Sequence record: ON286972
Reading direction: 5' to 3' (one strand)
DNA: 64,000 bases
From: Escherichia phage A4
The position numbers and the translations under genes were made by a program. Shown piece after piece: positions 12,925-35,100 of the stretch. The notes beneath the pieces were generated by a model, which saw nothing but the letters and a program-made list of their open reading frames with translations, ran no database searches and was not told the origin of the DNA. Numbering within the stretch: position 1 is the first letter of the stretch; every line of letters begins with the position of its first letter.

Positions 12925-13857
12925 ATGCCAACTATTACACTAACAGTTGGATTGCCAGGATGTGGTAAAACCACGTGGGCAGTGCAAGAAATTAAAAAAG
13001 CAAAGTCCAAGACTATCAACATCAATCGTGATGATATTCGAGAGTCTATGGCTGGGTCACATGATGCTTATAAATTCACTGATGCGAACGAGAAGTACGT
13101 AACTAATCAACAGTTCAGTGCAGCAAACGCAGCAGCAGCGAATGGATGGAACATTATTGTGTCCGATACGAACCTGAAACAAGGTTTTCGTGATGAATGG
13201 AAACGTTGGGCTAAAGATAATGGCTACGACTACAAAGAAAAGAACTTCTACGAAGATTTTGTACCGAATGAAGACCGTGGTGCAGATGTTCATGAATTCT
13301 TTAAGATTAAGGAATTCGTGAAGCTCTGTAAGAAACGCAACCTTCTTCGTGTGCGTTCAGTACAAGATGAAATCATTGACACTATGGCAGATACGTACTA
13401 TTATAGTAAGGCGATGCACATTGGTTACTATGGTAATGCACGTGAAGCTGCTATCATTGTTGATATCGACGGTACTCTTGCTCATAAGTGGGGACGTAAC
13501 CCGTTTGATGAAAGTACTGTCCTTCAGGATACACCAGATGAAGAAGTAATTCTGTCTGTCATTGCTGAGGCTGTTTTCCATAAGCGTAAGGTAATCGTCA
13601 TGAGTGGGCGTACTGAAGGGTGTCGTGCTGATACTGAACAGTGGCTTAAGAATTGGGGCATTCCCTACGATGTATTGTTAATGCGAGCTATCGATGATAA
13701 ACGTCCTGATGATGTTGTCAAATTCGAGTTGTATATGAATAACGTTGTTAATCATTACGATGTTAAGAAAGTATTTGATGACAGGGCCGCCGTTGTATTC
13801 ATGTGGCGTAAGCTACTAGGCTTGAAAGTATTTCAGGTGGAACCTGGACTATTTTGA
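12925..13857 (+). CDS. pseT: Polynucleotide 5'-kinase/3'-phosphatase (T4 Pnk-like)
   Basis: N-terminal P-loop GLPGCGKTTWA, NINRDD, and HAD-type phosphatase DIDGTLA with DDR..VV.MW; matches recalled T4 PseT. Confidence 0.9.
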   Translation: MPTITLTVGLPGCGKTTWAVQEIKKAKSKTININRDDIRESMAGSHDAYKFTDANEKYVTNQQFSAANAAAANGWNIIVSDTNLKQGFRDEWKRWAKDNGYDYKEKNFYEDFVPNEDRGADVHEFFKIKEFVKLCKKRNLLRVRSVQDEIIDTMADTYYYSKAMHIGYYGNAREAAIIVDIDGTLAHKWGRNPFDESTVLQDTPDEEVILSVIAEAVFHKRKVIVMSGRTEGCRADTEQWLKNWGIPYDVLLMRAIDDKRPDDVVKFELYMNNVVNHYDVKKVFDDRAAVVFMWRKLLGLKVFQVEPGLF

Positions 13858-21076: not shown

Positions 21077-22495
21077 ATGAGCATTTTAGCAATTCTGGAA
21101 CAAATCAAAAAGACTTCAAGTACACTTGGTAAGAAAGCAATCCTTGAAGAAAACAAAAACAATGAAACACTCAAAAAAGTACTGAAATATACGCTAGACC
21201 CTACTATCGTAAGTGGCTATAAGAAGCTACCAGACGCTGCTGACGTGTATCAACATATGACGTTAGATGAAGCTATTGATAAGCTAGAATGCATCTATAA
21301 GCGTGGTGTGACGGGTAATACAGGGCGTGATTTCATTGCTTCAGTACTAGGTGCTGTTCCTGAAGATGACCAGGAAGTTCTCCGTAAAATGCTCACGAAG
21401 AACCTTGATTGTGGTATTCAGGAAAAGAACTGTAATGATGTATTCGGTAAAGGCTTCATTAAAGATGAACCTTATATGCGTTGTTCATTGATTGACAAGA
21501 AAACTGCTAAGAACATCAACTTCAAAGATTATGGTTATGCCGTTGCTGAAGTTAAGATGGATGGTCAGTACTTGAACCACGTTGTTATCAATGCATCATT
21601 AACATCCACTTCCCGTAATGGTAAGATTTATGACTTCCTCGGTTGTCGTGATGCTGAAATGGCTGGTCTTGCTCATCATATCCAACGTACAGATGAACGT
21701 TTCAGTAGTGGTGTAGTCTTTATGGGCGAGGGTTTAGTACTGGATACTGATGGGGAAACTATTCTTCCACGTACAACTGGTAACGGCATCATTCAGAAAG
21801 CTGGTAAGGATACTATCACCCAAAACGAAGCAATGCGTACTGTATTTGTACTATGGGATGTAGTGCCATACGATGCATATTGTGATGGTATCTGGGATGT
21901 AAAACGTAAGGAACGACGCGAGATTCTCGAAGGTGCAATCAATGCATTAGGTAGTGAATTCGTGCGTATGGTTGGATATCGTAAGGTGAAGGATCTCAAA
22001 GAAGCCTTTGCTTACAACTCTGAACTCATGAGTTCCGGTGAAGAAGGTTCAGTACTGAAATGTGAAGATGGTATCTGGAAATCTCATACTTCTCCTAAGC
22101 AGTTGAAAATGAAATTGAAAATGCAACTGGACTTGCGTATTGTTGGTTTCAATGAAGGTGAAGGTAAGCGTAAAGGTATGCTTGGTTCTTTACAACTGGA
22201 AAGTGCTTGTGGTACACTAAAAGTAAGCGTAGGAACAGGCATTAAAGAGAAAGATGCTGAATGGACATTTAAAACCATTTGGGAAAGAATGCAAGAACTC
22301 ATTGGTAAAGTTGTTACAATTGAGTGCAATGACGTAGTATATGATAAGCGTACTGGTGAACCGTCACTATTCTTACCAGTGTTTATTGAATTTAGATTTG
22401 ACAAAAACACTTGTGACGATTATACTCGTATCTTAGAAATTCGCGATAGTGCAGTTGAGGTCTTCTCAAACAGTATTATTGAATCACTTGGCTAA
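21077..22495 (+). CDS. ATP-dependent DNA ligase (T4 gp30-like)
   Basis: N-terminus KKAILEENKNNETLKK parallels recalled T4 ligase KQAILEKNKDNELLKR; motif I AEVKMDG (KxDG); similar length. Confidence 0.9.
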   Translation: MSILAILEQIKKTSSTLGKKAILEENKNNETLKKVLKYTLDPTIVSGYKKLPDAADVYQHMTLDEAIDKLECIYKRGVTGNTGRDFIASVLGAVPEDDQEVLRKMLTKNLDCGIQEKNCNDVFGKGFIKDEPYMRCSLIDKKTAKNINFKDYGYAVAEVKMDGQYLNHVVINASLTSTSRNGKIYDFLGCRDAEMAGLAHHIQRTDERFSSGVVFMGEGLVLDTDGETILPRTTGNGIIQKAGKDTITQNEAMRTVFVLWDVVPYDAYCDGIWDVKRKERREILEGAINALGSEFVRMVGYRKVKDLKEAFAYNSELMSSGEEGSVLKCEDGIWKSHTSPKQLKMKLKMQLDLRIVGFNEGEGKRKGMLGSLQLESACGTLKVSVGTGIKEKDAEWTFKTIWERMQELIGKVVTIECNDVVYDKRTGEPSLFLPVFIEFRFDKNTCDDYTRILEIRDSAVEVFSNSIIESLG

Positions 22496-23711: not shown

Positions 23712-24094
23712 TGAAAATTATTACTGTGTACACAATTGTATATAATAACGAAATCAAGTACGTGTTAAATGCAAACTTACACCACACTAGAGGTGAAACA
23801 AAGTTACAACAGAACAGTACTGAAATCTCTCACTACTGGCTGGATGATGATTCAGTTGAAGTGTATATTGATGGTCGTGCTGAATACTATGATGCAGTTT
23901 TCTTTGAAGATTTAGATAAATCGAACGAATTCTTCATTTATGTCAGTACTGACCAATATTATACGCATTCTTTGTTTGACATTACCAACACTTCTGTGTA
24001 TGATACATGTATGGTTAGGTTACTGAAGATAGACCCAACTCTGTACAACAAAGAAACAATTTACGGTTTACTAGATTTTACAAGAAAATTGTAG
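23711..24094 (+). CDS. Hypothetical protein (127 aa)
   Basis: Track ORF. Confidence 0.5.
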   Translation: MKIITVYTIVYNNEIKYVLNANLHHTRGETKLQQNSTEISHYWLDDDSVEVYIDGRAEYYDAVFFEDLDKSNEFFIYVSTDQYYTHSLFDITNTSVYDTCMVRLLKIDPTLYNKETIYGLLDFTRKL

Positions 24095-24119
24095 ACAAAT
24101 ACGAACACTGTGATATAAT
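24092..24119 (+). promoter_or_regulatory. Sigma70-like promoter with extended -10
   Basis: TAGACA, 16 nt spacer, TGaTATAAT, about 35 nt upstream of the ClpP start. Confidence 0.45.
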
Positions 24120-24154: not shown

Positions 24155-24850
24155 ATGACTCAACAATTTATGTTTGGTGGTTATGCGAATGGTGAAACAA
24201 CTAACATTTCAATTCCATATGTAGTTGAAAAAGTTAATGGCAACGAACGTACTTATGATCTAGCATCTCGTATGATGCAAGACCGTATCATTTTCCTTGA
24301 TACTGATTTCAACGACCAGATGGCACATATCATCAAGCAACAATTGGTGTGGTTGGATTCTCAAGGTTCTGAACCAATTACTCTTTATATTTCCTCGCCG
24401 GGTGGTAGTGTTCATGCAGGTTTGGGTATTTCTGATATTGCTAAATCTTGTGTATCACCAATCCGCACAGTAGTGATGGGTTATGCAGCATCAATGGGTT
24501 GCTACACACAATCAGTAGTTGGTACTAAAGGTTATCGTCTTGGTGGTAAACGCTCGTACTTTATGTGTCACCAAGTAAGTTCTGGTACACAAGGTCTGAT
24601 CACTGATCAGAAAATTGCACTAAAACACTCTGATGCATTGAACACATTGCTGACGAAAGAAATCGCTGAAGCTGTAGGTGTTTCTCATGAAAAACTACTA
24701 GAAGATGCGGACCGCGATTTGTGGTTGAGTGCAGATGAAGCACTTGAGTATGGTGAACTTGGATTTATCGATGGTATTATCCTTGGTCCACGTAATGAAA
24801 AAGGTCAATACCTAGTTAAACGTCGCGGTGGTGTGGAAGAGTGGGTATAA
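24155..24850 (+). CDS. clpP: ClpP-family serine protease
   Basis: RIIFL, LYISSPGGSV, GYAASMG and HQ motifs align with E. coli ClpP catalytic regions. Confidence 0.8.
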   Translation: MTQQFMFGGYANGETTNISIPYVVEKVNGNERTYDLASRMMQDRIIFLDTDFNDQMAHIIKQQLVWLDSQGSEPITLYISSPGGSVHAGLGISDIAKSCVSPIRTVVMGYAASMGCYTQSVVGTKGYRLGGKRSYFMCHQVSSGTQGLITDQKIALKHSDALNTLLTKEIAEAVGVSHEKLLEDADRDLWLSADEALEYGELGFIDGIILGPRNEKGQYLVKRRGGVEEWV

Positions 24851-24876
24851 TTCAGTACTAAAACTTAAAATATATT

Positions 24877-24901
24877 ATGCCTCACTATGTGGGGCATTTT
24901 C
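24877..24901 (+). terminator. Probable terminator
   Basis: Hairpin atgcctcac/gtggggcat followed by TTTTCT. Confidence 0.35.
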
Positions 24902-24913
24902 TAAGGAGTTAAA

Positions 24914-25207
24914 ATGTCAAAGAAACTTGTACGAAACTCTAGCACTGAAGAAGTTGAAATTCTTGATGATTCGGAATTCATCAGTACTGCACTAGAGCAG
25001 ATCAGTACTCAAGCGTTAGCACTAAAAGACATTAAAGAATCAGAAGACCTACTGGTTGGTATGGCTGAAATTCTTGAATTGATGCAAGAAGTTCTTATGA
25101 AGAACAATATTAAACCAATTGATGCGGTGCAATATGCTGCAAATTTGCGAGCCGAACACGGTTCATTCAACGAGAAAAAAGCTGTCAGCACAGAAGATAA
25201 GGAATAA
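24914..25207 (+). CDS. Hypothetical acidic protein (97 aa)
   Basis: AAGGAG RBS, ATG. Confidence 0.5.
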   Translation: MSKKLVRNSSTEEVEILDDSEFISTALEQISTQALALKDIKESEDLLVGMAEILELMQEVLMKNNIKPIDAVQYAANLRAEHGSFNEKKAVSTEDKE

Positions 25208-25211
25208 TACA

Positions 25212-25658
25212 ATGGCTAATGAACAATACAAAGATGGTTATGATGCGTTTAAAAATAAACTAGTATTGTCACCAGAACAACTTAAAATGCAGCATCCAAT
25301 TTTCCGTCAAGGCTATCGTGCTGCACAAGCTGACGCAATGAAGAAAAACAATGTAACCTTCCCAACTACATTGTTTGATATTCCTAAACGTCCTGAAGTG
25401 TTTAAGGCTGATTGGACTGATATTATGGCAGCAACTAAACGACCACGTTTTGCAAAACTACATACCGACGAAGGTAAATGGCTGCTAATGGGTATCATGA
25501 AAGCTGTTGAAAAACGTGCACATACTATTGTCCGTTATCGTGATGTTGTTACTATGGTAGATGAAGCATTTGATATTGTACTTCAGTACGGCTACGATGA
25601 AGGTGTATTAACTGTTGAAGATTGTCAACAATATAACTATACACCGACCGAAAAGTGA
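25212..25658 (+). CDS. Hypothetical protein
   Basis: Track ORF 25119-25658 trimmed to ATG 25212 just after the upstream stop. Confidence 0.5.
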   Translation: MANEQYKDGYDAFKNKLVLSPEQLKMQHPIFRQGYRAAQADAMKKNNVTFPTTLFDIPKRPEVFKADWTDIMAATKRPRFAKLHTDEGKWLLMGIMKAVEKRAHTIVRYRDVVTMVDEAFDIVLQYGYDEGVLTVEDCQQYNYTPTEK

Positions 25659-25668
25659 TTAAATAAAT

Positions 25669-25690
25669 GGGAGTCATTGTACTCCCTTTT
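25669..25690 (+). terminator. Rho-independent terminator
   Basis: Hairpin gggagtcattgtactccc followed by TTTT. Confidence 0.55.
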
Positions 25691-25706
25691 CGCATAGGTA
25701 AATTAT

Positions 25707-26060
25707 ATGAGTAAAGTTTACATTTCTGTTGATATGGATTATTCATCTGATCCTATATGGACTTCTGAAACAGGAGACTATTGGATTAATGATGATCTTG
25801 ATGGATACAAAAAACTTTTTAGTGCAGGTTTAATGCATAGCTTGTATGTTTACCAGCAAATTTGGGAGGCATCCAATTGGAGTTCATATCTGTCACCATC
25901 GGATATGATAAATGTGGAAGCACCTGGGATGTTTATGATCCAACAAGCATCACATATATTAAGTCAAGCTTGTGCAGTACAAATAAAGAAGGAGTTTCCT
26001 GACTGGCACGTCTTTTATTGGTGCGACGCAAGTAACACTAGGAAGGAGGTAATACTTTAA
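25707..26060 (+). CDS. Hypothetical protein (117 aa)
   Basis: Track ORF. Confidence 0.5.
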   Translation: MSKVYISVDMDYSSDPIWTSETGDYWINDDLDGYKKLFSAGLMHSLYVYQQIWEASNWSSYLSPSDMINVEAPGMFMIQQASHILSQACAVQIKKEFPDWHVFYWCDASNTRKEVIL

Positions 26061-26569
26061 TGATCTTTAAAATCACTAAAGAAAGCAGTATTGAGTTCTC
26101 AAAAAATATGTTTTTAATAAATGAGTACGCAAAAAATATCAGTACTGAAGCAATAGAAATAACCAAGAAATGGTACGATAATTATTTGAATACAAGAAAA
26201 TGGTATCATAAAATTAATGATTACCAGTGGTTTCTTACTACTATAACTGAGGGAGATGGACTAGTATTAAGATATAATTGTATGAATTTTAATTACATTG
26301 GACTTGATTTCAATTCAACAATTGTTGGTATGGATATTAAAAAAATTAGAAAATTAACATCAATCAATACTAAGGAAATATATGAAGAATCGGGTAAAGT
26401 TTGGGAAGCTGTAACATTTATGATTAAGCACTCGTCATTTATGTATAGAAATTATGATATTAGTATGGATTTACAAAGTCGTAATATCCCATATACTTTA
26501 GATGAAAAACAATATCATCACATGAAAATGTGTGAAGAGATGGTTGAATCTTTAAAATTAAAGGAGTGA
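26060..26569 (+). CDS. Hypothetical protein (169 aa)
   Basis: AAGGAGG RBS. Confidence 0.5.
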   Translation: MIFKITKESSIEFSKNMFLINEYAKNISTEAIEITKKWYDNYLNTRKWYHKINDYQWFLTTITEGDGLVLRYNCMNFNYIGLDFNSTIVGMDIKKIRKLTSINTKEIYEESGKVWEAVTFMIKHSSFMYRNYDISMDLQSRNIPYTLDEKQYHHMKMCEEMVESLKLKE

Positions 26570-26570
26570 T

Positions 26571-27092
26571 ATGAACTATAATCAATTATCACAAGAAGAT
26601 ACTGATATTTGGCTAAAGAACGTAAACAATACGTTGGAACTTGTGCGACAATGTATTTCGGAAGCTGACCGTGTATCAGACGAAGCTAAAGAAAAAACAT
26701 ACAAACACTTTCACCGTAATATCTTCATGAAAATTTATGCACTTACTATGTATAATATGTACAAACCATCTGATATTTTTATTGGGTTGTATAGTGGGGC
26801 GATGTTCACATTAGGTGGGATTTTTTCAGATACTGGTCGTACATTAGAACAAAACGAAAAAGATGTTATCGTGGCAGTTGATAAGATTATGAATAAGGAA
26901 GTGGATTTCATTCTGGAAATCGTTCGTTGCTGGAATGTTTATAGCTCAAAACCATTTGACATTACACAGAAAGATATAGTAGACTATATGCGTATTTTAC
27001 GTACACATCAGATCTGTAAAGAACTATTAACCAATTTAGGGACATATGATGAAACATACAACGTGGTTGAAGATAGCCAGTGTCGTTGCTGA
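26571..27092 (+). CDS. Hypothetical protein (173 aa)
   Basis: Track ORF. Confidence 0.5.
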   Translation: MNYNQLSQEDTDIWLKNVNNTLELVRQCISEADRVSDEAKEKTYKHFHRNIFMKIYALTMYNMYKPSDIFIGLYSGAMFTLGGIFSDTGRTLEQNEKDVIVAVDKIMNKEVDFILEIVRCWNVYSSKPFDITQKDIVDYMRILRTHQICKELLTNLGTYDETYNVVEDSQCRC

Positions 27093-27528
27093 GGAAAGTA
27101 AGTGTCTTTCCCAGAAAGTAGGTTGTGTTATTGTAAAGAATAACCGAGTATTGAGTACTGGATATAACGGTACACCATCAAAGCAACCTAACTGTTGTGA
27201 TGTTAATAAACATCTCGTAAACAATGGTCAGTTTCAGGATTGGATTGATGAAGATGCAAAACACTTACATCACGAGTGGAGCAACATTCATGAGATCCAT
27301 GCGGAAATGAATGCATTACTATATAGTTCACCACAAGAACGTCAGGGTGCAACACTTTACACCACACTCCAACCGTGCTATACTTGTTCTAAGTTAATCG
27401 CTGGTAGTGGTATTTCTCGTGTAATTTACGAAAAATCGTATCCTCGCACTCCACCAGAAGCTATTAAAGTACTGGAAGATGCTGGGATTATTGTAAATTG
27501 TATCTATGATAATGGACTCAATAAATGA
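27046..27528 (+). CDS. cd: dCMP deaminase
   Basis: Zinc-binding HAEMNAL and PCYTC motifs; close parallel to recalled T4 Cd (LQIA..VS.ESKC.S.KVG.VI.KN.R..STGYNG). Confidence 0.9.
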   Translation: MMKHTTWLKIASVVAEESKCLSQKVGCVIVKNNRVLSTGYNGTPSKQPNCCDVNKHLVNNGQFQDWIDEDAKHLHHEWSNIHEIHAEMNALLYSSPQERQGATLYTTLQPCYTCSKLIAGSGISRVIYEKSYPRTPPEAIKVLEDAGIIVNCIYDNGLNK

Positions 27529-27785
27529 CAATGGTATATTTGTTTCTAGGTTGTATTGTTATATTTGTATTGTTTGCTATCTATTGTTTAGTTGATACTG
27601 ATTATTCAATGCGTGGTAATAAGAATTATCAAGTACGTTTTTCCCCGCATAATAACAAGTACTACATTGTGAATGTTAGCCACACTACTGGTCGTGAAAT
27701 GAAAGTAACTGGTAGATTTGGCTTTACAATTTACTATGATAACCAAATTGATGTTGATTATGTTGTTGAAAAGTTAAATAAATGA
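27525..27785 (+). CDS. Small membrane protein (86 aa)
   Basis: N-terminal hydrophobic helix. Confidence 0.45.
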   Translation: MTMVYLFLGCIVIFVLFAIYCLVDTDYSMRGNKNYQVRFSPHNNKYYIVNVSHTTGREMKVTGRFGFTIYYDNQIDVDYVVEKLNK

Positions 27786-27786
27786 G

Positions 27787-27812
27787 AAAAGGAGCCTATG
27801 GCTCCTTTTTTA
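27787..27812. terminator. Bidirectional terminator between convergent genes
   Basis: Hairpin ggagcc-tat-ggctcc flanked by A-run and T-run. Confidence 0.6.
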
Positions 27813-28187
27813 TTATGCTTTTTTACGTAGGATGTATTGTCCATTATGTAATTTAATTTTGTGAATCATGTACATAGTGCAAAACCCTTCAATACCTGCT
27901 TCTTCATCTTTCAATTTAATGAAGAAAGTATTATCTCTTAGGCTTTCTACAAGGCTTTCATCTGAATCTTCGAAATTCATGATATATGAATCTTTATTTC
28001 TATACACCATCTGAACATATTCATAAACCTTACCGCTTTCATCGATTAGATCATAAGTATGTGCTGAACGTTGTTTTAAAATATATAGTTTACCAAGAAT
28101 AGCTGCTCCATTAATTTTAGCACCAGTAATTTCGATACCATTAATAGAAAAAGGAAGTCTTCCGGTTAATGCAATTGGTTTACCCAT
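27813..28187 (-). CDS. Small protein paralogous to the N-terminal domain of the Ig-repeat protein
   Basis: Trimmed to the ATG with GGAG RBS; LPFSINGIEITGAKINGAAILGKLYILKQRSAHTYDLID resembles the N-terminus of 28245-30413. Confidence 0.5.
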   Translation of the reverse strand: MGKPIALTGRLPFSINGIEITGAKINGAAILGKLYILKQRSAHTYDLIDESGKVYEYVQMVYRNKDSYIMNFEDSDESLVESLRDNTFFIKLKDEEAGIEGFCTMYMIHKIKLHNGQYILRKKA

Positions 28188-28244
28188 TATTATACTTCTC
28201 CAAGTAAAGTGCATGATAATTTTCATGCACTATATTATTAAAAA

Positions 28245-30413
28245 TTAAGCACTGATTGTTACAGTTGCAGTATCAGTTTTATTGCCATTCGCAGTAGTCA
28301 CTGTAATGACTACAGTACCTTCTTCTAGAGCAGTTACTAATCCATCATCACTAATAGATACTTTAGTAGGTTCATCTGCACTATAAGTTACTGATTTGTT
28401 AGTTGCGTTAGCTGGAAGAACTTCTGGAACTAGTTGAACTGTTTTAGTACCTGATAGTGAAAGATCAGTGGCTTTAGGTGTTAAACCAACGCTGGATACT
28501 GGTACTGGAATATTAACAGTTACAGCACATTTTGCAGTTTTTGCACCATCAGTAGTTTTTACAGTGATATCAGCAGTACCGTTTGCAACAGCAGTGATTA
28601 AACCACTTGCACTAACAGTTGCGACCCCAGCAGCAGAAGTACTATAAGTTACTGCTTTGTTAGTTGCATTAGCTGGTAGTACAGTTGGTGTTAGTTGTTG
28701 AGTTGCACCAACAGATGTTAAAGTTGCTGTTGTTGGAGAAACAGAAACACTAGCTACAGGAACTGGGATTGACACAGTAATGACACCTTGACCTGTTTTA
28801 CCACTTCCATCAGCGGCAGTTGCGATAATGTTTGCAGTACCGTTAGTTAACGCAGTTACAACACCAGTACTAGCATCAACTTTCGCTACAGCAGGTGCAC
28901 TAGAAGACCATGTTACAGCTTTATTAGTTGCGTTAGCTGGAAGAACTTCAGCAGCCATTGCTTGAGTTGCGTTAACAGCAGTCAATGTTTTAGTTGCTGG
29001 AGTAACATTAATAGTTGTTACTGGAACTGGAATTGCTACAGTTACTGCACAAACTTTACTAAAGCCACCATCAGCAGTAGTAGCCGTGATATTAGCAGTG
29101 CCATTCGCTACCGCAGTGATTAAACCACTTGTACTAACGGTTGCAACACCAGCAGCAGAAGTTGCGTATGTTACTGCTTTGTTACGAGCATTAGCTGGTA
29201 GAACAGTTGCAGTTAATTGCTGTGTTGCACCAACAGAAGTTAATGAAGCGGTTGCAGGTGTTAGGTTAATACCAGTTACTGGAATCGTCACATCAATAAT
29301 TGATTGTGCGGTTTTTTCACCATCAATAGTTGTTACTGTAATAGTGGCAGTACCATTATTAACAGAAGTTACTAAACCGTCATCATCAACTTCTGCTACT
29401 GTAGGTGCAGAAGATTCATAACGAACTTCCTGATTTGATGCAGTTCTTGGTAGTACCGTTGCTGTTAATGGTTCATTTGCACCAATAGTAGTGAATGTAT
29501 ATGTTTCAGGTGTTAACGTAACACCAGTTACTGCTGTTTGAACTTTAATAGAAGAAGTATCAGTAAATGAACCATCTTCAGTTGTTGCAGTAATAGTAAC
29601 ATCACCATTGGATACACCTGTTACCAACCCAGAATCTTTATCAACTGTTGCAACGGATGGAGCAGATGAAGCCCATGTAACTTTCTTGTCTGTTGCTGAG
29701 GCCGGAGTAACTTCAGCTAACAATTGTTGAGTTGCCCCAACGTTTACAGTTGCAGTTTTAGGAGAAACGGTAACACCAGTAACACCAGTACTGACAACGA
29801 TAGAACACACATCTGTGAAATCACCATCGTGAGTTGTTACGGTTACATCAGCATTGCCATTTGCAAGTGCAGTTGCTAGACCTGTTTGAGCATCAACTTC
29901 AACGATTGTAGGAGCAGATGAAGAGTAGGTTACTGCCTTGTCTTTTGCATTAGATGGAACTACTTGGGCTGATAGTTGTTTTGTTGCACCAACTTTAAGA
30001 GATGCATCTTTGGGTGTAATTACAACACCAGTTACGGGGACATCAGCATTAACATAATCGCGTTTTACGATACGACCATTATTTAATTTAATAACACGAC
30101 CCATATAAAGCATAGTATATCCCATGCTAATACCATCATCAACATAGATCATGAATGAATTGTCTTGAACCATATTAATTGCGTCTGCTGGTTCAACAGA
30201 ATTTGGAATGTCGATACCACGAGTATCATACCAACGCATGGAAACTTTGTAATAGATATCACCATTATCATTGATGAGATCATACACGTTACCGGAACGT
30301 TGACGGTTAATATATAAAGTTTCGGTTAACACCTTACCATCGATTTTAGCGACGGAAACTTTAATACCACCAATACCAAAAGGCAATTTACCTTCACTAG
30401 ATATTGCTTTCAT
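28245..30413 (-). CDS. Virion-associated candidate with N-terminal domain plus seven Big_2 Ig-like repeats
   Basis: Seven ~85 aa repeats of VTPA..L.VGATQQL.A.VLPANATNKAVT..SSAP.VA.V...GL.TAV..G.A.IT..T.DG; late promoter upstream. Confidence 0.75.
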   Translation of the reverse strand: MKAISSEGKLPFGIGGIKVSVAKIDGKVLTETLYINRQRSGNVYDLINDNGDIYYKVSMRWYDTRGIDIPNSVEPADAINMVQDNSFMIYVDDGISMGYTMLYMGRVIKLNNGRIVKRDYVNADVPVTGVVITPKDASLKVGATKQLSAQVVPSNAKDKAVTYSSSAPTIVEVDAQTGLATALANGNADVTVTTHDGDFTDVCSIVVSTGVTGVTVSPKTATVNVGATQQLLAEVTPASATDKKVTWASSAPSVATVDKDSGLVTGVSNGDVTITATTEDGSFTDTSSIKVQTAVTGVTLTPETYTFTTIGANEPLTATVLPRTASNQEVRYESSAPTVAEVDDDGLVTSVNNGTATITVTTIDGEKTAQSIIDVTIPVTGINLTPATASLTSVGATQQLTATVLPANARNKAVTYATSAAGVATVSTSGLITAVANGTANITATTADGGFSKVCAVTVAIPVPVTTINVTPATKTLTAVNATQAMAAEVLPANATNKAVTWSSSAPAVAKVDASTGVVTALTNGTANIIATAADGSGKTGQGVITVSIPVPVASVSVSPTTATLTSVGATQQLTPTVLPANATNKAVTYSTSAAGVATVSASGLITAVANGTADITVKTTDGAKTAKCAVTVNIPVPVSSVGLTPKATDLSLSGTKTVQLVPEVLPANATNKSVTYSADEPTKVSISDDGLVTALEEGTVVITVTTANGNKTDTATVTISA
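28250..30050 (-). repeat. Tandem ~260 bp coding repeats (Big_2 domain units)
   Basis: Recurring gttactgctttgttagttgcattagctgg-like segments at ~260 bp periodicity. Confidence 0.6.
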
Positions 30414-30449
30414 ATACTTTCCTTTATAAATTGTATTGTAGTGTTATAT

Positions 30450-30457
30450 TATTTATA
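30450..30457 (-). promoter_or_regulatory. T4-type late promoter TATAAATA
   Basis: Plus-strand TATTTATA (TATAAATA on minus) about 37 nt upstream of the minus-strand start at 30413. Confidence 0.55.
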
Positions 30458-30481
30458 TTATACCAAAAGTATTTTAGGATT

Positions 30482-30504
30482 AAAAAAGGAGTCCGAAGAC
30501 TCCT
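30482..30504 (-). terminator. Rho-independent terminator (minus strand)
   Basis: Hairpin ggagtc-cgaa-gactcc with T-run on the minus strand, just downstream of the gene ending at 30517. Confidence 0.5.
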
Positions 30505-30516
30505 TAAAATATAAAG

Positions 30517-31020
30517 TTATTGGAAACGAGCATACGGTGGAAATCTGGTTTGGTCAGGCCAATCTTTCGGAGAGAAGTAAGCAGTGAATTGCATTTTATC
30601 ATTTGAATAAAGAACAAAATCATCTGGCTTTATTATAACTTTAGACAACGAATTTGGCTCCACGTTCGTTCTTCTGAAAATTATTTCACCATTATGTAAT
30701 TTTATTTTATTACTTTGATATTGAATACCAAAACCATACTTATTATTAATAGCATCAGCTTCTTTTATGCAAAATGTATTATTTGCTAAAGATTTAGCAA
30801 TTTCAGCATCGTCATCATCATACTACAATGTTGATTTATCTTTATTTCTACCTGTGATTTTTATCTTGAAATTTTCAGATATTAAATCATATGAATCGAA
30901 TGTTCTTTGTTTTATAACATACAATTCTTTAACAAATACTTGCCCTTCTATCTTTGCAGCAGTAACCTGCAATCCACCTATAACAAATGGAAATTGATCT
31001 AAGCCAGCTATTGGTTTCAT
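30517..31020 (-). pseudogene. Third N-domain paralog interrupted by a single in-frame TAG (nonsense allele or read-through gene)
   Basis: Track ORF 30823-31020 ends at TAG; the same frame continues 101 codons to TAA at 30517-30519 and stays similar to paralog 27813-28187. Confidence 0.45.
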
Positions 31021-31154
31021 AACATCTCCTTACCTTAAAAATGGGATTGTAAACTGCCTCCCAATATGATACCATAGTTCAAATGGTCAATTGGTAAATC
31101 AATGAACTTAACAAAAACACTTGATACTACAGTCATAATTGTTCAGTTTTGCAC

Positions 31155-31183
31155 TTGACATAATTGATCAATTATTGTACTAT
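31155..31183 (+). promoter_or_regulatory. Candidate sigma70-like promoter
   Basis: TTGACA, 17 nt spacer, TACTAT, about 35 nt upstream of 31219. Confidence 0.35.
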
Positions 31184-31218
31184 TATTTATGTTCCTTAAC
31201 TCAAATCCGAGGTAATCA

Positions 31219-31824
31219 ATGAAACGAATCTTGAAAGAGATTGTACAAACCGTTGTTTTAATCGCTGCATTAAACTTTCCGGCAGCGGCAGAAGTTTCAA
31301 AAAAATCATCAGTTTTTCTATTAAATGAACATGTTGTGTCAATTGATGGTGAACTAAATGATGAAACTGTACAAGAAGTGAAGAAGTTGTGGAAAGAAAC
31401 AAGATTTAAAATTTTAACAATTACATCACCTGGTGGAGATTTTGATGCAGGATTAGATTTGGGATTGTTTGTGGCTGCTAAAAAGTTAACTGTTTATGTC
31501 CCAAAGCAATGTAATTCGTCTTGTAGTCTGGTTTTTTTCTCTGCATCATCTGAACGTAGGGATATGAGTGATACCGCAGTGATGGGTTTACATAACATCT
31601 CACTAGTATCTACGAATGGTGCAGATCCAGATACGACATTCGTTTCAGTTAGACAGTTGATGGAGTTTACACATCAAGTCTCAACTAAAGTTGGGTATCT
31701 TTTTACACTGTACGCACATAACGGTATCCCCGCTGAAACACTCATTGATATCAGTACTAAACATGGTGAGGATATCGTTGTCTTACGAAGAACAGATCTA
31801 GTTAAATGGGGAATTATTCAATAA
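31219..31824 (+). CDS. Secreted ClpP/NfeD-like serine peptidase-fold protein
   Basis: N-terminal signal-like segment, then ILTITSPGGDFDAG resembling the ClpP-class SPGG motif. Confidence 0.45.
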   Translation: MKRILKEIVQTVVLIAALNFPAAAEVSKKSSVFLLNEHVVSIDGELNDETVQEVKKLWKETRFKILTITSPGGDFDAGLDLGLFVAAKKLTVYVPKQCNSSCSLVFFSASSERRDMSDTAVMGLHNISLVSTNGADPDTTFVSVRQLMEFTHQVSTKVGYLFTLYAHNGIPAETLIDISTKHGEDIVVLRRTDLVKWGIIQ

Positions 31825-31951
31825 AAGTTGTATTTTTTATGAAGCAATGATATAATCCTAATACTAATTCATGATTTTGGTTAAGGGTGGTGTACTGCCA
31901 CCCGATTTTAAGATATAATGGTTGCACATTAAACAACCAAGGAAACAAAAA

Positions 31952-32215
31952 ATGACAGAATTATCACATCTTCAAGGCTGGACAGAGTTCATCTTCTATG
32001 CTACTATAGTTACATATGGAATCATTGTTCTTTTATCAGTGATTATGGCAAATGATTTTAAGAGTGGTTTTCTTGAAGAAAATGGTGAGTTTTCTTCTAA
32101 AACTGAAAAGTACTTTTATTATTTCTTTAAAATTTCGTATACAATTTTACTCATAATTTTGGGTTTACTATTGTATTTCATGTACACAATCTTAGATGTA
32201 ATGCATCTTTTATAA
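31952..32215 (+). CDS. Small membrane protein
   Basis: Trimmed to ATG 31952 after AAGGAAA; two hydrophobic helices. Confidence 0.45.
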   Translation: MTELSHLQGWTEFIFYATIVTYGIIVLLSVIMANDFKSGFLEENGEFSSKTEKYFYYFFKISYTILLIILGLLLYFMYTILDVMHLL

Positions 32216-32226
32216 CGGAGATAACA

Positions 32227-32829
32227 ATGACTTGTATTATTGCTTACACTGATGGTAACACATCTTTTATCGCGGGTGACAAACTGGGTAGTAATGGTTT
32301 CACTAAAGCAATTCAAACTGAACCAAAAGTGTTTGAAAAAGAATTCATCAAAATCGATGAAAGTGGATTGAATCGCACCAAAGAAGTTATGGCAATGGGA
32401 TACACGTCGAGCTTCCGCATGGGACAATTGCTGACGTATAAACTTGATTTACCTGAACAGCAATCAAACCAAACATTCTCACAGTACTTAGTACTTGAGG
32501 TAATCCCACGTATTCGCACACTATTCAAAGAAGAATGGGGTGCTCGTGATACAACTCAAGATGTGGGTGGTGGTCAATTTATCATTCTTCATAATCATAC
32601 AATTTATGAAGTGCAAGAGGACTTTTCAGTACTCCAGCCTAAGACTCAAATTACGTCAGTAGGTAGTGGGACATATCATGCAATTGCAGCTATGCAAGCA
32701 TATATTGAAGTTCAAAAAGAAACAGGTGTTAAGATGGTTGATCGCACCGATTCTATCTTCAAAATTGTAAGTGATAATGTTACCAGCGTTAGTGCTGAGT
32801 ATGATTTACTAAGCTATCCTAAGCTGTAA
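32227..32829 (+). CDS. Ntn-hydrolase, HslV/proteasome-beta-like peptidase
   Basis: Thr2 after Met, IAGD and SVGSG..YA.AA motifs paralleling E. coli HslV. Confidence 0.5.
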   Translation: MTCIIAYTDGNTSFIAGDKLGSNGFTKAIQTEPKVFEKEFIKIDESGLNRTKEVMAMGYTSSFRMGQLLTYKLDLPEQQSNQTFSQYLVLEVIPRIRTLFKEEWGARDTTQDVGGGQFIILHNHTIYEVQEDFSVLQPKTQITSVGSGTYHAIAAMQAYIEVQKETGVKMVDRTDSIFKIVSDNVTSVSAEYDLLSYPKL

Positions 32830-32889
32830 TACAAAAAAGGGGATTCTTATAATCCCCTATATTAATTTAATAAGGAGAGTATTATAACT

Positions 32890-33102
32890 ATGATAACTAT
32901 CAATTACTTTTCACTATGCTTTGTTTATTTTGTTGTTGTATTTCTAGCAGTTGTAGCGTACAATAATATTAAATGTATATATAAAATTATCAAAAACAAA
33001 GAGAAATTCAATGGATGGATGATATATCACATTGTCATCTCGGTTGTGTGTATCTTATTTGTATACGATTTGAGTTCATTAGGTACAGTAGGTAAGCTAT
33101 GA
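32890..33102 (+). CDS. Small membrane protein (70 aa)
   Basis: Two hydrophobic helices; AAGGAG RBS. Confidence 0.45.
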   Translation: MITINYFSLCFVYFVVVFLAVVAYNNIKCIYKIIKNKEKFNGWMIYHIVISVVCILFVYDLSSLGTVGKL

Positions 33103-33851
33103 TTTCTGACTCTTTTATAAAAAATAAAGGTAATAAACGTGTATTGGTTATTTCCGGTGCAGGTCTATCCGTTGAAAGTGGGATGGAACCGTTTCGCATG
33201 GACGATGGCCTATGGGATCAATTTCAAATAAATGATGTATGTAACATTGCACGTCTTAGTACTAAGTATCATTTAGTACACACTTTCTATAATACATTAC
33301 GTGTTAAAATGAAAGATTGTGTTCCTAATGATATGCATTATTATATCAAATCTCTAGAAGATACATACGGTGATAACTTTTTACATATGACTTCGAATAT
33401 GGATGATCTCTATACTCGTATTGGTGGTAATGAATTAAAGTTACATGGTAATTTAAAAGAAGTTATTGAGAATTTTACAATTGGTGGTGACGATTATAGT
33501 ATTGTGGATTGTGGTTATGAACCGTACATTCCGAAAGAAGGTGTCTTTGCGAAACCAAACGTAGTGTTCATTGGTGAATATTATCGTTATGTTGATGGTG
33601 AAAAACTCCCAATATACGATGAGCGTAATTTAATATTGCAATCCTTAACAGAAGATGATACAGTTGTAGTCATTGGTAGCAGTGACACAGTACTGAAATG
33701 GTCACATCTGGTTGCTTGTTTACCATGCTTTAGTGTTAATATCAACATCAGAAAAAATGATAACGATTTCATGTTCAATGAAAAAATTATAAAACCAGCT
33801 ACAAAAGCGATTCCAGTACTGGAAACTATCATTAAGGATAGAATGAAATGA
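33099..33851 (+). CDS. Sir2-family (sirtuin-like) protein
   Basis: VLVISGAGLSVESG..PFR..DGLW and HMTSNMDDL...HG motifs match the sirtuin NAD-binding core; no Cys4 zinc module seen. Confidence 0.7.
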   Translation: MISDSFIKNKGNKRVLVISGAGLSVESGMEPFRMDDGLWDQFQINDVCNIARLSTKYHLVHTFYNTLRVKMKDCVPNDMHYYIKSLEDTYGDNFLHMTSNMDDLYTRIGGNELKLHGNLKEVIENFTIGGDDYSIVDCGYEPYIPKEGVFAKPNVVFIGEYYRYVDGEKLPIYDERNLILQSLTEDDTVVVIGSSDTVLKWSHLVACLPCFSVNINIRKNDNDFMFNEKIIKPATKAIPVLETIIKDRMK

Positions 33852-34396
33852 TTCGAGAAGTACCTCTAGGTGAGTATGGTAAACGAGCAAACTTTGTATT
33901 CTGTTACTTCTTTGCTCGAAATTGTAACCCATATAAAGGTTATGAATTAAATGATATCCCTGTTGTGAATCTGGTATTACTCCAGCTTCGTTGGGATGGT
34001 TTACTGGGTGGTTGTGGTGGAACAGTCGAAGATACCGATGCCACCTTAGAAGATGCACTATTCCGTGAAATTCAGGAAGAGATGGATTATAATATTTTCA
34101 TCGAACAACTGAAACCATTGAAAACTTACGAACTATATCCTGGAGCACATACCCATAGCTATAGTTATGAAGTTACTTACGAAGAATTGAATGCGATTCG
34201 CGACGGATACAGTACTGCTAAACATGCAAGTGCAGAAGTGGCTGGTGTTAATTTATGTCACATTTCTCGTTATTCAAAGGGACAAAACCGAGAAGCAGGA
34301 TATAATAATCTTATGACACAAAACTTCATAGGAACTGCTAAAATGGAATTAGAACATCTTGTTCAATCCGAGAATTTACTGATTAGTTACTTATAA
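33848..34396 (+). CDS. Nudix-like hydrolase
   Basis: GGTVEDTDATLEDALFREIQEEM approximates the Nudix box GX5EX7REUXEE. Confidence 0.45.
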   Translation: MIREVPLGEYGKRANFVFCYFFARNCNPYKGYELNDIPVVNLVLLQLRWDGLLGGCGGTVEDTDATLEDALFREIQEEMDYNIFIEQLKPLKTYELYPGAHTHSYSYEVTYEELNAIRDGYSTAKHASAEVAGVNLCHISRYSKGQNREAGYNNLMTQNFIGTAKMELEHLVQSENLLISYL

Positions 34397-34407
34397 GGTG
34401 AATTATA

Positions 34408-34740
34408 ATGTCTTACTCAATGTTTCTGGATGATATTCGTGATCCTGAAAAGTATTATCCAAATCAAAACATGGTTTTATGTCGTGATTATGAAAGTGCA
34501 TGTGCTTATGTAAATGAACATGGTTTACCACAATTTATTAGCTTCGATCATGACTTAGGTGATGTTGGGGAGGATGAAAAAACAGGGTATTCATTTGCAA
34601 AATTTCTAATTGATTATATGGTCGAAAACAATATCAGTACTGAATTCGATTATATCATCCATAGCAGTAATCCTGTAGGGAAGGTCAACATTGACACATA
34701 CTTACAGAATGGTTTTAGATTTTTGAGAGGGGACAATTGA
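34408..34740 (+). CDS. Hypothetical protein (110 aa)
   Basis: Track ORF. Confidence 0.5.
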   Translation: MSYSMFLDDIRDPEKYYPNQNMVLCRDYESACAYVNEHGLPQFISFDHDLGDVGEDEKTGYSFAKFLIDYMVENNISTEFDYIIHSSNPVGKVNIDTYLQNGFRFLRGDN

Positions 34741-35036
34741 CAAAACATCATATACAAAGCTTTATAATCACAAGTGTTATATTTCTTGTTGTGTTTTGGT
34801 TCTTCTATCATCAAGATCAAACCAAGCACAGAAATATATACTACCGTACTGCTGTTGTTACTGACATAGGGCAGTGTGAAGAAAATACATGTTCATTTAC
34901 TTATAAGACTGAAGATGGGTCTATTAAGTATGGAGCATCAAGTAAACCAGTTTCAGTTGGGCAAATTGTTTACAATGAATGCTGGACAGAAAAGGCTCGC
35001 GGTCACCGCTGCTACGTTGACTATGAGCCACAATAA
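34737..35036 (+). CDS. Small membrane-anchored protein
   Basis: TTG start overlapping the upstream stop; N-terminal hydrophobic helix. Confidence 0.4.
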   Translation: MTKHHIQSFIITSVIFLVVFWFFYHQDQTKHRNIYYRTAVVTDIGQCEENTCSFTYKTEDGSIKYGASSKPVSVGQIVYNECWTEKARGHRCYVDYEPQ

Positions 35037-35100
35037 GAAGTGTCTGAGTCTATAATCTACCGTAGAGCACAAGGATGTGCTCATAACTCAAGGATGTTTT

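What the first reader, a model, noticed from the sequence alone, without database searches (positions are those of the whole stretch)
24155..32829. Several phage-encoded peptidase-fold proteins without a visible partner ATPase
The window encodes a canonical ClpP (24155-24850) behind a sigma70-like promoter, a second signal-peptide-bearing ClpP/NfeD-like protein (31219-31824), and an HslV/proteasome-beta-like Ntn hydrolase (32227-32829), the last two interleaved with small membrane proteins. No ClpX/ClpA/HslU-like ATPase is present here. The phage may hijack host unfoldases or deploy these as decoys or inhibitors.
Basis: partly seen in the sequence, partly recalled or inferred. Interest (0 to 1): 0.5.

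Follow-up and report, generated by a model that had tools for sequence, protein, structure and literature searches.

The report
Three phage peptidases; ClpA lies off-window
A giant E. coli phage carries three real, catalytically intact protease-type genes, but the "missing" motor protein for its ClpP is encoded about 86 kb away in the same genome, so most of this is ordinary and already annotated.

Summary
All three ORFs exist at the stated coordinates in an Asteriusvirus/Rak2-like jumbo coliphage.

- **ORF1 (24155-24850)** is a true ClpP with an intact Ser113/His139/Asp188 triad behind a conserved extended -10 promoter.
- **ORF2 (31219-31824)** is a secreted, very divergent ClpP/NfeD-fold protein. 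Its family keeps SxGG, C-x-S100-x-C and H125 invariant.
- **ORF3 (32227-32829)** is a proteasome-beta/HslV/BPH-like N-terminal-Thr hydrolase with Thr1/Asp17/Lys33 and GSG invariant.
- Two small ORFs with two predicted TM segments each flank ORF3.
- No unfoldase gene lies in the 64 kb window.

A contig 99% identical to the window carries a 761-aa ClpA with an LGL ClpP-docking loop, about 77 kb downstream of ORF3. This ClpA is conserved across Rak2-like phages, annotated as clpA in many GenBank records, and noted in the literature. ClpP therefore has a phage-encoded partner and is most likely part of a phage ClpAP protease.

ORF2 is predicted to be periplasmic, where no ATPase partner is expected. 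Only ORF3 is a genuine orphan, and orphan phage proteasome homologues have already been catalogued (Fuchs, Alva, Lupas 2021). Intact catalytic residues argue against decoys, and a separate T4 gp21-type protease covers prohead processing.

Interest is low to moderate.

The parts
24092..24119 (+). sigma70-type promoter with extended -10 (TAGACA-16-TGTGATATAAT) upstream of clpP
   Evidence: 11/12 consensus match. The -10 element and the downstream RBS are strictly conserved in JP4, L026 and TH47.
24155..24850 (+). ORF1: phage ClpP (231 aa), cytoplasmic, catalytic Ser113/His139/Asp188
   Evidence: Pfam PF00574 at 7.7e-42. NCBIfam ClpP subfamily 158 bits, versus 52 bits for the ClpP-related head-maturation model (cut-off 120). 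PDB ClpP hits at 1e-37. Triad, oxyanion Gly84/Met114 and the N-terminal loop are conserved. No hydrophobic segment.
31155..31183 (+). promoter-like site (TTGACA-17-TACTAT) upstream of ORF2
   Evidence: 10/12 match. The -35 is partly conserved in JP4 and L026. This is weak evidence.
31219..31824 (+). ORF2: exported, divergent ClpP/NfeD-fold putative Ser-His peptidase (201 aa) with a C98-x-S100-x-C102 motif
   Evidence: PHROG 26024 'protease'. S70, G72, G73, C98, S100, C102 and H125 are invariant over 56 family members. The family profile hits ClpP at 3e-5 and NfeD at 6e-3. hhalign to ClpP places S100 on the catalytic Ser and H125 on the catalytic His. Signal-peptide-like residues 1-24 end in AAA|E.
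31952..32215 (+). 87-aa protein with two predicted TM segments, ending 11 nt before ORF3
   Evidence: Two hydrophobic segments, KD 2.4. Gene called at the same place in contigs 98.6% (L019) and 100% (L021) identical to the window. A syntenic small ORF is present in JP4. An RBS (GGAG) precedes the ORF3 ATG.
32227..32829 (+). ORF3: proteasome-beta/HslV/BPH-like N-terminal-Thr hydrolase (200 aa) with no propeptide
32838..32858 (.). GC-rich hairpin after ORF3 (terminator-like on both strands)
32890..33102 (+). 70-aa protein with two predicted TM segments, overlapping the Sir2 start by 4 nt
   Evidence: Two hydrophobic segments. A syntenic small ORF is present in JP4 and in near-identical contigs.

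Best explanation
The region holds three evolutionarily separate, catalytically competent peptidase genes of an Asteriusvirus/Rak2-like jumbo coliphage. They are accessory (non-morphogenetic) genes embedded in an early, nucleotide-metabolism-type gene block. (1) ORF1 is a genuine cytoplasmic ClpP. Its partner is the phage's own ClpA, a 761-aa double-ring AAA+ unfoldase with an LGL docking loop, encoded about 86 kb downstream and outside the window. Together they most likely form a phage ClpAP protease that degrades host and/or phage proteins during infection. The pairing is inferred from co-conservation and motifs and has not been shown. (2) ORF2 is exported by a Sec signal peptide and is a very divergent ClpP/NfeD-fold enzyme. 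It probably uses a Ser100-His125 dyad, with the Ser framed by two Cys that likely form a disulfide. It would act without ATP in the periplasm or at the membrane on an unknown substrate. (3) ORF3 is a group-I proteasome homologue, equidistant from HslV and BPH. Removing Met1 exposes Thr1, and Asp17/Lys33/GSG are intact. It is most likely an active self-compartmentalising peptidase that needs no dedicated phage ATPase, like BPH. Use of host HslU cannot be excluded.
For: Identity of ORF1. ClpA in a complete relative genome: E=3.8e-180 to E. coli ClpA, Walker A in both D1 and D2, no ClpB M-domain, IGM at the IGL position. ClpA on the same contig as a 100%-identical ORF3, with that contig 99% identical to the window. 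The docking tripeptide [LIVM]-G-[LMV] is kept in 10 of the 11 Rak2-like-group ClpA clusters aligned (SE_PL-type has MNM) and is absent in ClpB. ClpA is present in 35 phage records at 80% identity or more and throughout the Rak2-like group, often annotated clpA. [quoted passage not shown] Not the prohead protease: phAPEC6 and Sharanji have a T4 gp21-type prohead protease in the head module, and group 2 jumbo phages use S77. ORF2. ORF3. No HslU, ClpX or Lon homologue in TH47, and none next to distant ORF3 homologues. The literature reports no co-occurring AAA+ for the novel proteasome homologues (PMC8665760).
Against: No experiment links phage ClpP to phage ClpA. The two genes are far apart and not in one operon. 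The ClpP docking pocket differs from E. coli ClpP at four positions recalled from memory (Y60T, F82S, F112L, L114G); this could mean co-adaptation to phage ClpA or weaker docking in general. ORF2's relation to ClpP is remote (best E 3e-5), its AlphaFold model failed (pLDDT 44), and no counterpart of the triad Asp is conserved. The signal peptide was judged only by hydrophobicity and an AxA motif, not by a dedicated predictor. ORF3's oligomeric state and activity are unknown. A single ClpP peptide was found in CBB virions.
Confidence: 0.72

Rival explanations
1. The phage ClpP, lacking its own motor, hijacks host ClpX/ClpA, and ORF3 hijacks host HslU.
For: No unfoldase gene in the window. The ClpP N-terminal loop residues that contact unfoldases (Pro4, Val6, Glu8, Glu14, Arg15, Asp18 equivalents) are conserved. 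There is no phage HslU. Host E. coli has ClpX, ClpA and HslU.
Against: The phage encodes its own ClpA with a docking loop. Four ClpP pocket positions differ from the host ClpP. For ORF3, identity to HslV is only about 15% and BPH, which has no known ATPase partner, is an equally close structural neighbour.
Confidence: 0.25
2. One or more of the three are prohead/scaffold maturation proteases.
For: PHROG 94 and several GenBank records label ORF1 homologues 'head maturation protease'. One ClpP peptide was detected in CBB virions.
Against: ORF1 scores 158 bits on cellular ClpP models versus 52 bits (cut-off 120) on the ClpP-related head-maturation model. It sits among DNA ligase, phosphoesterase and dCMP deaminase genes behind a sigma70-type promoter. 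Relatives have a T4 gp21-type prohead core protease beside the major capsid gene, detected in virions. ORF2 carries an export signal.
Confidence: 0.05
3. The proteins are catalytically dead decoys or inhibitors that titrate host unfoldases.
For: None beyond the apparent absence of a partner in the window.
Against: Catalytic residues are invariant across divergent homologues in all three families, which indicates selection for catalysis.
Confidence: 0.04
4. ORF2, the 87-aa TM protein, ORF3 and the 70-aa TM protein form one envelope-associated proteolytic module (for example a membrane-tethered protease pair acting in lysis timing, superinfection exclusion or receptor remodelling).
For: The gene order ORF2, small TM, ORF3, small TM is conserved in JP4 and L027, and ORF2 and ORF3 are adjacent in TH47. 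Only 11 nt separate the 87-aa gene from ORF3. In an unrelated phage contig a ClpP-fold gene with the same CxSxC motif lies two small genes upstream of an ORF3 homologue.
Against: ORF3 has no signal or TM segment and ORF2 is predicted to be exported, so they would sit in different compartments. The distant ClpP-fold neighbour lacks a signal peptide and matches only weakly (E 3e-4). Other distant ORF3 homologues lack such a neighbour.
Confidence: 0.12

Closest known systems
Bacterial ClpAP protease (ClpP, MEROPS S14, with the ClpA double-ring AAA+ unfoldase), and its annotated homologues in Rak2-like jumbo phages
   Same: ORF1 has the ClpP fold signature, the Ser-His-Asp triad, the oxyanion residues and the N-terminal loop. 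The phage ClpA has D1 and D2 rings, no M-domain, and a hydrophobic-Gly-hydrophobic docking loop at the IGL position.
   Different: Only 38% identical to E. coli ClpP and below the NCBIfam equivalog cut-offs. It has an N-terminal extension of about 19 aa and a C-terminal extension of about 22 aa. The docking pocket is altered at four positions. clpP and clpA are about 86 kb apart rather than functionally clustered. Substrates are unknown.
HslV and BPH (group I proteasome homologues); phage-borne homologues PPH, AAH and CPH of Fuchs, Alva and Lupas 2021
   Same: ORF3 has the Ntn beta-sandwich with two helix pairs, Thr1/Asp17/Lys33, a GSG loop and no propeptide. It is compact, without a C-terminal H5 helix. 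It has no co-encoded AAA+ partner, like BPH and the novel homologues.
   Different: About 15% identity to both HslV and BPH. The Asteriusvirus clade has an insertion of about 16 residues forming a beta-hairpin between the Lys33 strand and the Gly47-equivalent strand, which distant homologues lack. It has both H1 and H2 and is 200 aa long, so it is not PPH (about 140 aa, lacks H2). Assignment to AAH, CPH or a new cluster could not be tested.
NfeD/1510-N membrane protease and SppA (ClpP-fold, ATP-independent envelope peptidases)
   Same: ORF2 shares the ClpP-clan fold signature (SxGG, nucleophile Ser after a beta-strand), is exported or membrane-associated, and has no ATPase.
   Different: ORF2 keeps the ClpP-type His (H125) rather than the Ser-Lys dyad of NfeD/SppA. 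It has a family-specific C-x-S-x-C motif. It is a 201-aa single domain with no OB-fold or stomatin partner.

Membership tests
ClpP (Pfam PF00574 / MEROPS S14) | Significant match to the family model above the curated threshold | tested here: met
   143.7 bits versus a gathering score of 20.2. The NCBIfam equivalog cut-offs (249-361 bits) are not reached, at 158 bits, so it is a divergent ClpP.
ClpP (Pfam PF00574 / MEROPS S14) | Ser-His-Asp catalytic triad and oxyanion residues | tested here: met
   Ser113, His139 and Asp188 align with Ser97, His122 and Asp171; Gly84 and Met114 align with Gly68 and Met98.
ClpP (Pfam PF00574 / MEROPS S14) | Partner AAA+ unfoldase with an IGF/IGL-type docking loop available | tested here: met
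   Phage ClpA P0231 (LGL loop) lies on the same genome contig as the window's genes. Physical interaction was not tested.
ClpP (Pfam PF00574 / MEROPS S14) | Conserved hydrophobic docking pocket | tested here: inconclusive
   7 of 11 pocket positions (the list is recalled from memory) are conservative; Y60T, F82S, F112L and L114G differ.
ClpP (Pfam PF00574 / MEROPS S14) | Tetradecameric barrel assembly | not testable with these tools
   No multimer prediction is available.
ClpP-related phage head maturation protease (NF045542) | Match above the curated cut-off, with the gene in the head-morphogenesis module | tested here: not met
   52.4 bits versus a cut-off of 120. The neighbours are DNA ligase, phosphoesterase and dCMP deaminase. 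The prohead protease of relatives is gp21-type.
ClpP/NfeD clan, for ORF2 | Statistically supported homology to clan members | tested here: met
   As a single sequence it is sub-threshold (E 0.02). The 56-sequence profile hits ClpP at 3.2e-5 and NfeD at 6e-3, and almost all of the 82 PDB hits are ClpP or NfeD. hhalign gives E 4e-4 over 146 columns. No usable 3D model.
ClpP/NfeD clan, for ORF2 | Nucleophile Ser and general base at the family positions | tested here: met
   S100 and H125 are invariant in 56 sequences and align to the ClpP Ser and His. No conserved Asp equivalent was found.
ClpP proper, for ORF2 | Cytoplasmic location, docking to an AAA+ unfoldase, Pfam threshold | tested here: not met
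   15 bits versus a gathering score of 20.2. It has an N-terminal signal-like segment. ORF2 is therefore not a ClpP orthologue.
Proteasome-beta/HslV superfamily (Ntn hydrolases, MEROPS T1), for ORF3 | Fold: four-layer alpha-beta-beta-alpha with strands S1-S11 and helices H1-H4 | tested here: met
Proteasome-beta/HslV superfamily (Ntn hydrolases, MEROPS T1), for ORF3 | N-terminal Thr nucleophile, Asp17, Lys33, the oxyanion Gly and the GSG loop | tested here: met
   T2, D18, K34, G146 and G148 are invariant, and G58 is nearly invariant, over 29 sequences. Met-Thr at the N-terminus permits Met removal (inference).
HslV proper (HslVU peptidase subunit) | Match to the HslV equivalog model and a cognate HslU | tested here: not met
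   NCBIfam HslV 20 bits versus a cut-off of 137. No Pfam Proteasome hit for ORF3 itself. No HslU homologue in TH47.
PPH / AAH / CPH clusters of Fuchs et al. 2021 | Cluster membership by sequence; PPH is about 140 aa and lacks helix H2 | tested here: inconclusive
   ORF3 is 200 aa and has both H1 (63-72) and H2 (84-104), so it is not PPH. Reference sequences for AAH and CPH were not obtainable.

The most novel reading that the evidence does not exclude
ORF3 and its relatives are a distinct phage lineage of group-I proteasome homologues, with a clade-specific hairpin inserted between the Lys33 strand and the Gly47-equivalent strand. This is the S3/S4 site where, per Fuchs et al. 2021, connectase carries its specificity element. 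On this reading ORF3 works either as an ATPase-independent degradation chamber or with the phage ClpA as a shared motor. Together with the exported CxSxC ClpP-fold protein and the two small membrane proteins, it would form a previously undescribed phage proteolytic module acting on host envelope or defence proteins.
Probability: 0.1. Interest if true: 0.6.

Novelty: new member of a known kind. Interest (0 to 1): 0.25.

Why it matters
If the phage ClpAP pair is active, it is a virus-encoded, self-sufficient ATP-dependent protease able to reshape the host proteome or destroy defence proteins. This has been hypothesised (Iyer et al. 2021; Attai et al. 2018) but, as far as the searched literature shows, never tested. 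The orphan proteasome-like ORF3 and the exported ClpP-fold ORF2 belong to uncharacterised families, so a culturable coliphage offers a tractable system for a first functional assignment. The specific claim of the finding, proteases without a partner ATPase, is largely an artefact of the window boundary.

Tried and rejected
- **ORF2 structure.** The AlphaFold model of ORF2 from the 6-sequence alignment failed (pLDDT 44), so no fold search was possible. I relied on profile methods instead.
- **PDB sequence searches.** Single-sequence searches for ORF2 and ORF3 gave nothing meaningful.
- **AFDB50 fold search.** The library was unavailable.
- **E. coli genome collection.** The window phage is not in the complete E. 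coli genome collection, so I used a relative's complete genome (TH47) plus exact-protein contig look-ups.
- **ClpX search.** This was superseded by the local whole-genome search.
- **Genome papers.** The Sharanji and fEgEco12 papers contain nothing on Clp, HslV or AAA+ proteins. No paper uses the phrases 'phage ClpP', 'phage ClpA' or 'phage-encoded ClpP'.
- **Proteasome-homologue supplement.** The supplement of the proteasome-homologue paper holds no sequences or phage names.
- **ClpS-like ORF.** A ClpS-like ORF in TH47 is below the Pfam threshold (17 bits versus 23), so it is kept as a lead only.
- **PhoH.** I considered PhoH, which recurs next to ORF3 homologues, as a possible ATPase partner. 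I rejected it as unsupported: it is not an AAA+ unfoldase, and the co-location may only reflect conserved module order.


Full report
**What the window is.** The window (GC about 35%, genes almost all on the + strand) belongs to a jumbo enterobacterial myovirus of the PBECO4/121Q/G17 type, genus Asteriusvirus, one of the 'Rak2-like' phages. The finding's region matches 44 phage records of about 320-386 kb at 77-84% identity. A Logan contig is 100% identical to the window, and NCBI E. coli-assembly contigs of 352,052 and 358,987 bp are 99% identical to it. The gene order around the finding is conserved in relatives such as JP4: DNA ligase, metallophosphoesterase, two small genes, ClpP, five small genes, dCMP deaminase, (variable minus-strand structural genes), 'protease', small gene, 'HslV family peptidase', small gene, Sir2, NUDIX, cREC_REC, PIN-PhoH.

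**Observation check.** All three ORFs exist as described.

ORF1 (24155-24850, 231 aa) matches Pfam CLP_protease at 7.7e-42 and solved ClpP structures at about 1e-37. Aligned with E. coli ClpP (38% identity), Ser113, His139 and Asp188 coincide with Ser97, His122 and Asp171. The oxyanion residues and most of the N-terminal loop (Pro, Val, Glu8, Glu14, Arg15, Asp18 equivalents) are also conserved.

A TAGACA-16-TATAAT site preceded by TG lies 36 nt upstream. Promoter-like matches in the region as a whole are not enriched (37 versus 43.9 expected). However, this TGTGATATAAT box and the following RBS are strictly conserved in four relatives whose flanks have diverged, so the promoter call is reasonable.

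ORF2 (31219-31824, 201 aa) has only sub-threshold Pfam hits to CLP_protease and NfeD1b_N (E about 0.02). It fully matches PHROG 26024 'protease'. Its N-terminus (MKRILKEIVQTVVLIAALNFPAAA|EV) is the only hydrophobic segment.

ORF3 (32227-32829, 200 aa) matches PHROG 1040 'peptidase HslV family' at 3.6e-21.

The two interleaved ORFs (31952-32215, 87 aa; 32890-33102, 70 aa) each have two strongly hydrophobic 19-residue segments.

No window ORF resembles ClpX, ClpA, ClpB, HslU, Lon or FtsH. The only Walker-A ORFs are 12925-13857 and the PIN-PhoH gene at 35077-36540.

**ORF1 has a partner outside the window.** I assembled the complete genome of the relative TH47 (352,450 bp) and searched it with E. 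coli ClpX, ClpA, ClpB, HslU, Lon, FtsH and ClpS.

- One ORF (289,538-291,823, minus strand, 762 aa) matches ClpA at 3.8e-180.
- It has Walker A motifs in D1 and D2 and lacks the ClpB middle domain.
- It carries IGM exactly where E. coli ClpA has the ClpP-docking IGL loop, which ClpB lacks.
- Pfam finds AAA, AAA_lid_9, AAA_2 and ClpB_D2-small domains.
- tblastn finds this gene in 35 phage records at 80% identity or more and at 60-75% in RaK2, GAP32, Serratia BF, Yersinia fHe-Yen9-04, Erwinia and Salmonella jumbo phages. Many records already name it clpA.
- Cluster P0231 (86% identical to the TH47 protein) lies at 330,747-333,032 of NCBI contig AAREHQ020000002.1. The same contig carries a 100%-identical ORF3 at 252,685-253,287. 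That contig is 99% identical to the window over 5.3 kb.

The window's own phage therefore encodes ClpA about 77 kb downstream of ORF3 (about 86 kb from clpP), beyond the window's end. Its docking tripeptide is LGL. Of the 11 Rak2-like-group ClpA clusters aligned, 10 have [LIVM]-G-[LMV] there and one (the SE_PL type) has MNM.

[quoted passage not shown] It also states that ClpP occurs patchily in jumbo phages and may be deployed against host proteins, with ClpA, ClpX or ClpS in subsets (PMC7824862).

The phage ClpP docking pocket differs from E. coli ClpP at four positions (Y60T, F82S, F112L, L114G; the position list is from memory). This fits, but does not prove, co-adaptation with the phage ClpA.

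**ORF1 is not the prohead protease.** ORF1 scores 158 bits on cellular ClpP models but only 52 bits (cut-off 120) on the ClpP-related head-maturation model. It sits among replication and nucleotide-metabolism genes. Relatives have a T4 gp21-type prohead core protease next to the major capsid and scaffold genes, and it is detected in virions (phAPEC6 gp227c; Sharanji; group 2 jumbo phages use S77). The only contrary hint is one ClpP peptide (4.5% coverage) in CBB virion mass spectrometry. The PHROG and GenBank labels 'head maturation protease' are annotation transfer from ClpP-like prohead proteases of other phages.

**ORF2.** The word-indexed search found only six clusters, all from this phage group. 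The exhaustive profile search found 1,724 representatives at E <= 1e-3. Most are 190-290 aa and start with a hydrophobic N-terminus.

Across 56 members, S70, G72, G73, C98, S100, C102 and H125 are invariant. The 56-sequence profile hits ClpP structures at 3.2e-5 and the NfeD 1510-N protease at 6e-3, and almost all of the 82 PDB hits are ClpP or NfeD. Of 34 distant members, 6 reach Pfam CLP_protease and 4 reach NfeD1b_N at E <= 0.001.

In both the hmmsearch and hhalign alignments, SxGG aligns with ClpP's SPGG oxyanion loop, S100 with the catalytic Ser, and H125-N126 with His-Gln. No counterpart of the triad Asp is conserved.

ORF2 is thus a member of the ClpP/NfeD clan but not a ClpP orthologue. 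It most likely uses a Ser-His dyad. The two Cys flanking the Ser, in a protein with an export signal, suggest a disulfide (inference). An exported enzyme neither needs nor can use an ATPase. The AlphaFold model was unusable (pLDDT 44), so the fold rests on profiles.

**ORF3.** Homologues range from 100% down to 28% identity, and a few distant ones carry Pfam Proteasome. In 29 aligned sequences M1, T2, C3, D18, K34, G146 and G148 are invariant, and G58 is nearly so. Once Met1 is removed these are Thr1, Asp17 and Lys33, the oxyanion Gly and the GSG loop of proteasome-beta/HslV enzymes, as listed in PMC8665760.

The model is confident (pLDDT 91, pTM 0.87).

- Foldseek ranks HslV first (E 2e-10), with BPH giving the best TM-scores (0.71/0.77).
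- Sequence identity to all of these is about 15%. NCBIfam HslV models score only 20 bits against a cut-off of 137.

ORF3 is therefore a group-I proteasome homologue, not an HslV orthologue. It has both H1 and H2 and is 200 aa long, which excludes the PPH type (about 140 aa, no H2). Assignment to AAH, CPH or a new cluster could not be tested.

The Asteriusvirus clade has an insertion of about 16 residues (roughly 37-55) that forms a beta-hairpin between the Lys33 strand and the Gly strand. Distant homologues lack it.

BFVD holds 37 phage proteins with this fold at E < 1e-3. TH47 has no HslU, ClpX or Lon homologue. Distant ORF3 homologues in unrelated phage contigs have no AAA+ unfoldase neighbour. 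Fuchs et al. likewise found no co-occurring AAA+ for the novel homologues and argue that some may act without one.

**Mechanism, with status of each step.**

- Shown by sequence: three catalytically intact peptidase-fold genes; ClpA present in the same genome; a docking loop present; an export signal on ORF2; no phage HslU.
- Inferred: ClpP and ClpA form a phage ClpAP protease that is expressed early and degrades host and/or phage proteins. ORF2 is a periplasmic, ATP-independent Ser-His peptidase. ORF3 is an active Thr1 peptidase that forms rings like HslV or BPH. It either works without an ATPase or borrows host HslU.
- The 11-nt spacing between the 87-aa membrane gene and ORF3, and the conserved order ORF2, TM, ORF3, TM, suggest co-expression. 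A functional link is unproven.

**Verdict.** [quoted passage not shown] The Clp components of Rak2-like phages and phage proteasome homologues have both been described in silico. What remains open is function, which no searched paper addresses experimentally. Interest is low to moderate.

Noticed in passing
window 27813-31020 (minus strand): 27813-28226, 28245-30413, 30823-31020: Three minus-strand paralogues share an N-terminal domain of about 60-110 aa (PHROG 33171/10468 'virion structural protein'). The middle one adds seven Big_2 Ig repeats. In genomes 99% identical to the window this slot holds 722-, 808- or 1881-aa genes, and the 65-aa ORF is a 171-aa gene elsewhere, so it looks truncated here. 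JP4 lacks the large gene. This appears to be a hypervariable surface-decoration cassette inserted between the ClpP block and ORF2.
   Followed up: partly
L022 3868-6558; L024 329-2053; window 32227-36540: ORF3-family genes in unrelated phage contigs lie next to or near PhoH, and close to dCMP deaminase and DNA ligase. This is the same neighbourhood as in the window (ligase 21077-22495, deaminase 27046-27528, PIN-PhoH 35077-36540). No AAA+ unfoldase is adjacent.
   Followed up: partly
L022 4668-5435: A 255-aa gene two small genes upstream of a distant ORF3 homologue weakly matches the ORF2-family HMM (E 3e-4). It carries NSGGG, CGSMC and FSH motifs, that is, a ClpP-fold with the same CxSxC signature, but it has no signal peptide. 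This is a possible recurrent pairing of a ClpP-fold gene with a proteasome-like gene.
   Followed up: partly
window 33099-34740: A Sir2-family gene (33099-33851) and a Nudt16-like NUDIX gene (33848-34396) overlap by 4 nt directly after the ORF3 cluster. They are followed by a cREC_REC-domain gene (34408-34740). This may be an NAD/nucleotide-signalling or anti-defence block.
   Followed up: no
TH47 (MT446416.1) 204859-205419, minus strand (outside the window): A 181-aa ORF has a weak ClpS-like stretch (Pfam ClpS E 0.0046, 17 bits, below the cut-off of 23). It keeps one of the two Asp of the ClpS NDD motif. If real, the phage group would encode ClpA, ClpP and an adaptor.
   Followed up: partly
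window 24155-24850 and contig AAREHQ020000002.1 330747-333032 (L015 6001-8286): The phage ClpP docking-pocket positions differ from E. coli ClpP (Y60T, F82S, F112L, L114G). The phage ClpA docking tripeptide varies (LGL, IGM, IGV, LGM, MGM, VGM; MNM in the SE_PL type). This hints at co-evolution of a private ClpA-ClpP interface.
   Followed up: partly
NCBI contigs AAREHQ020000002.1 (358,987 bp) and JAYLON010000004.1 (352,052 bp): Near-identical full-length copies of this lytic-type jumbo phage genome occur as single contigs inside E. coli isolate assemblies. This suggests carrier-state or pseudolysogenic persistence, or contamination of the cultures. None is present in the complete RefSeq E. 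coli genome set.
   Followed up: no
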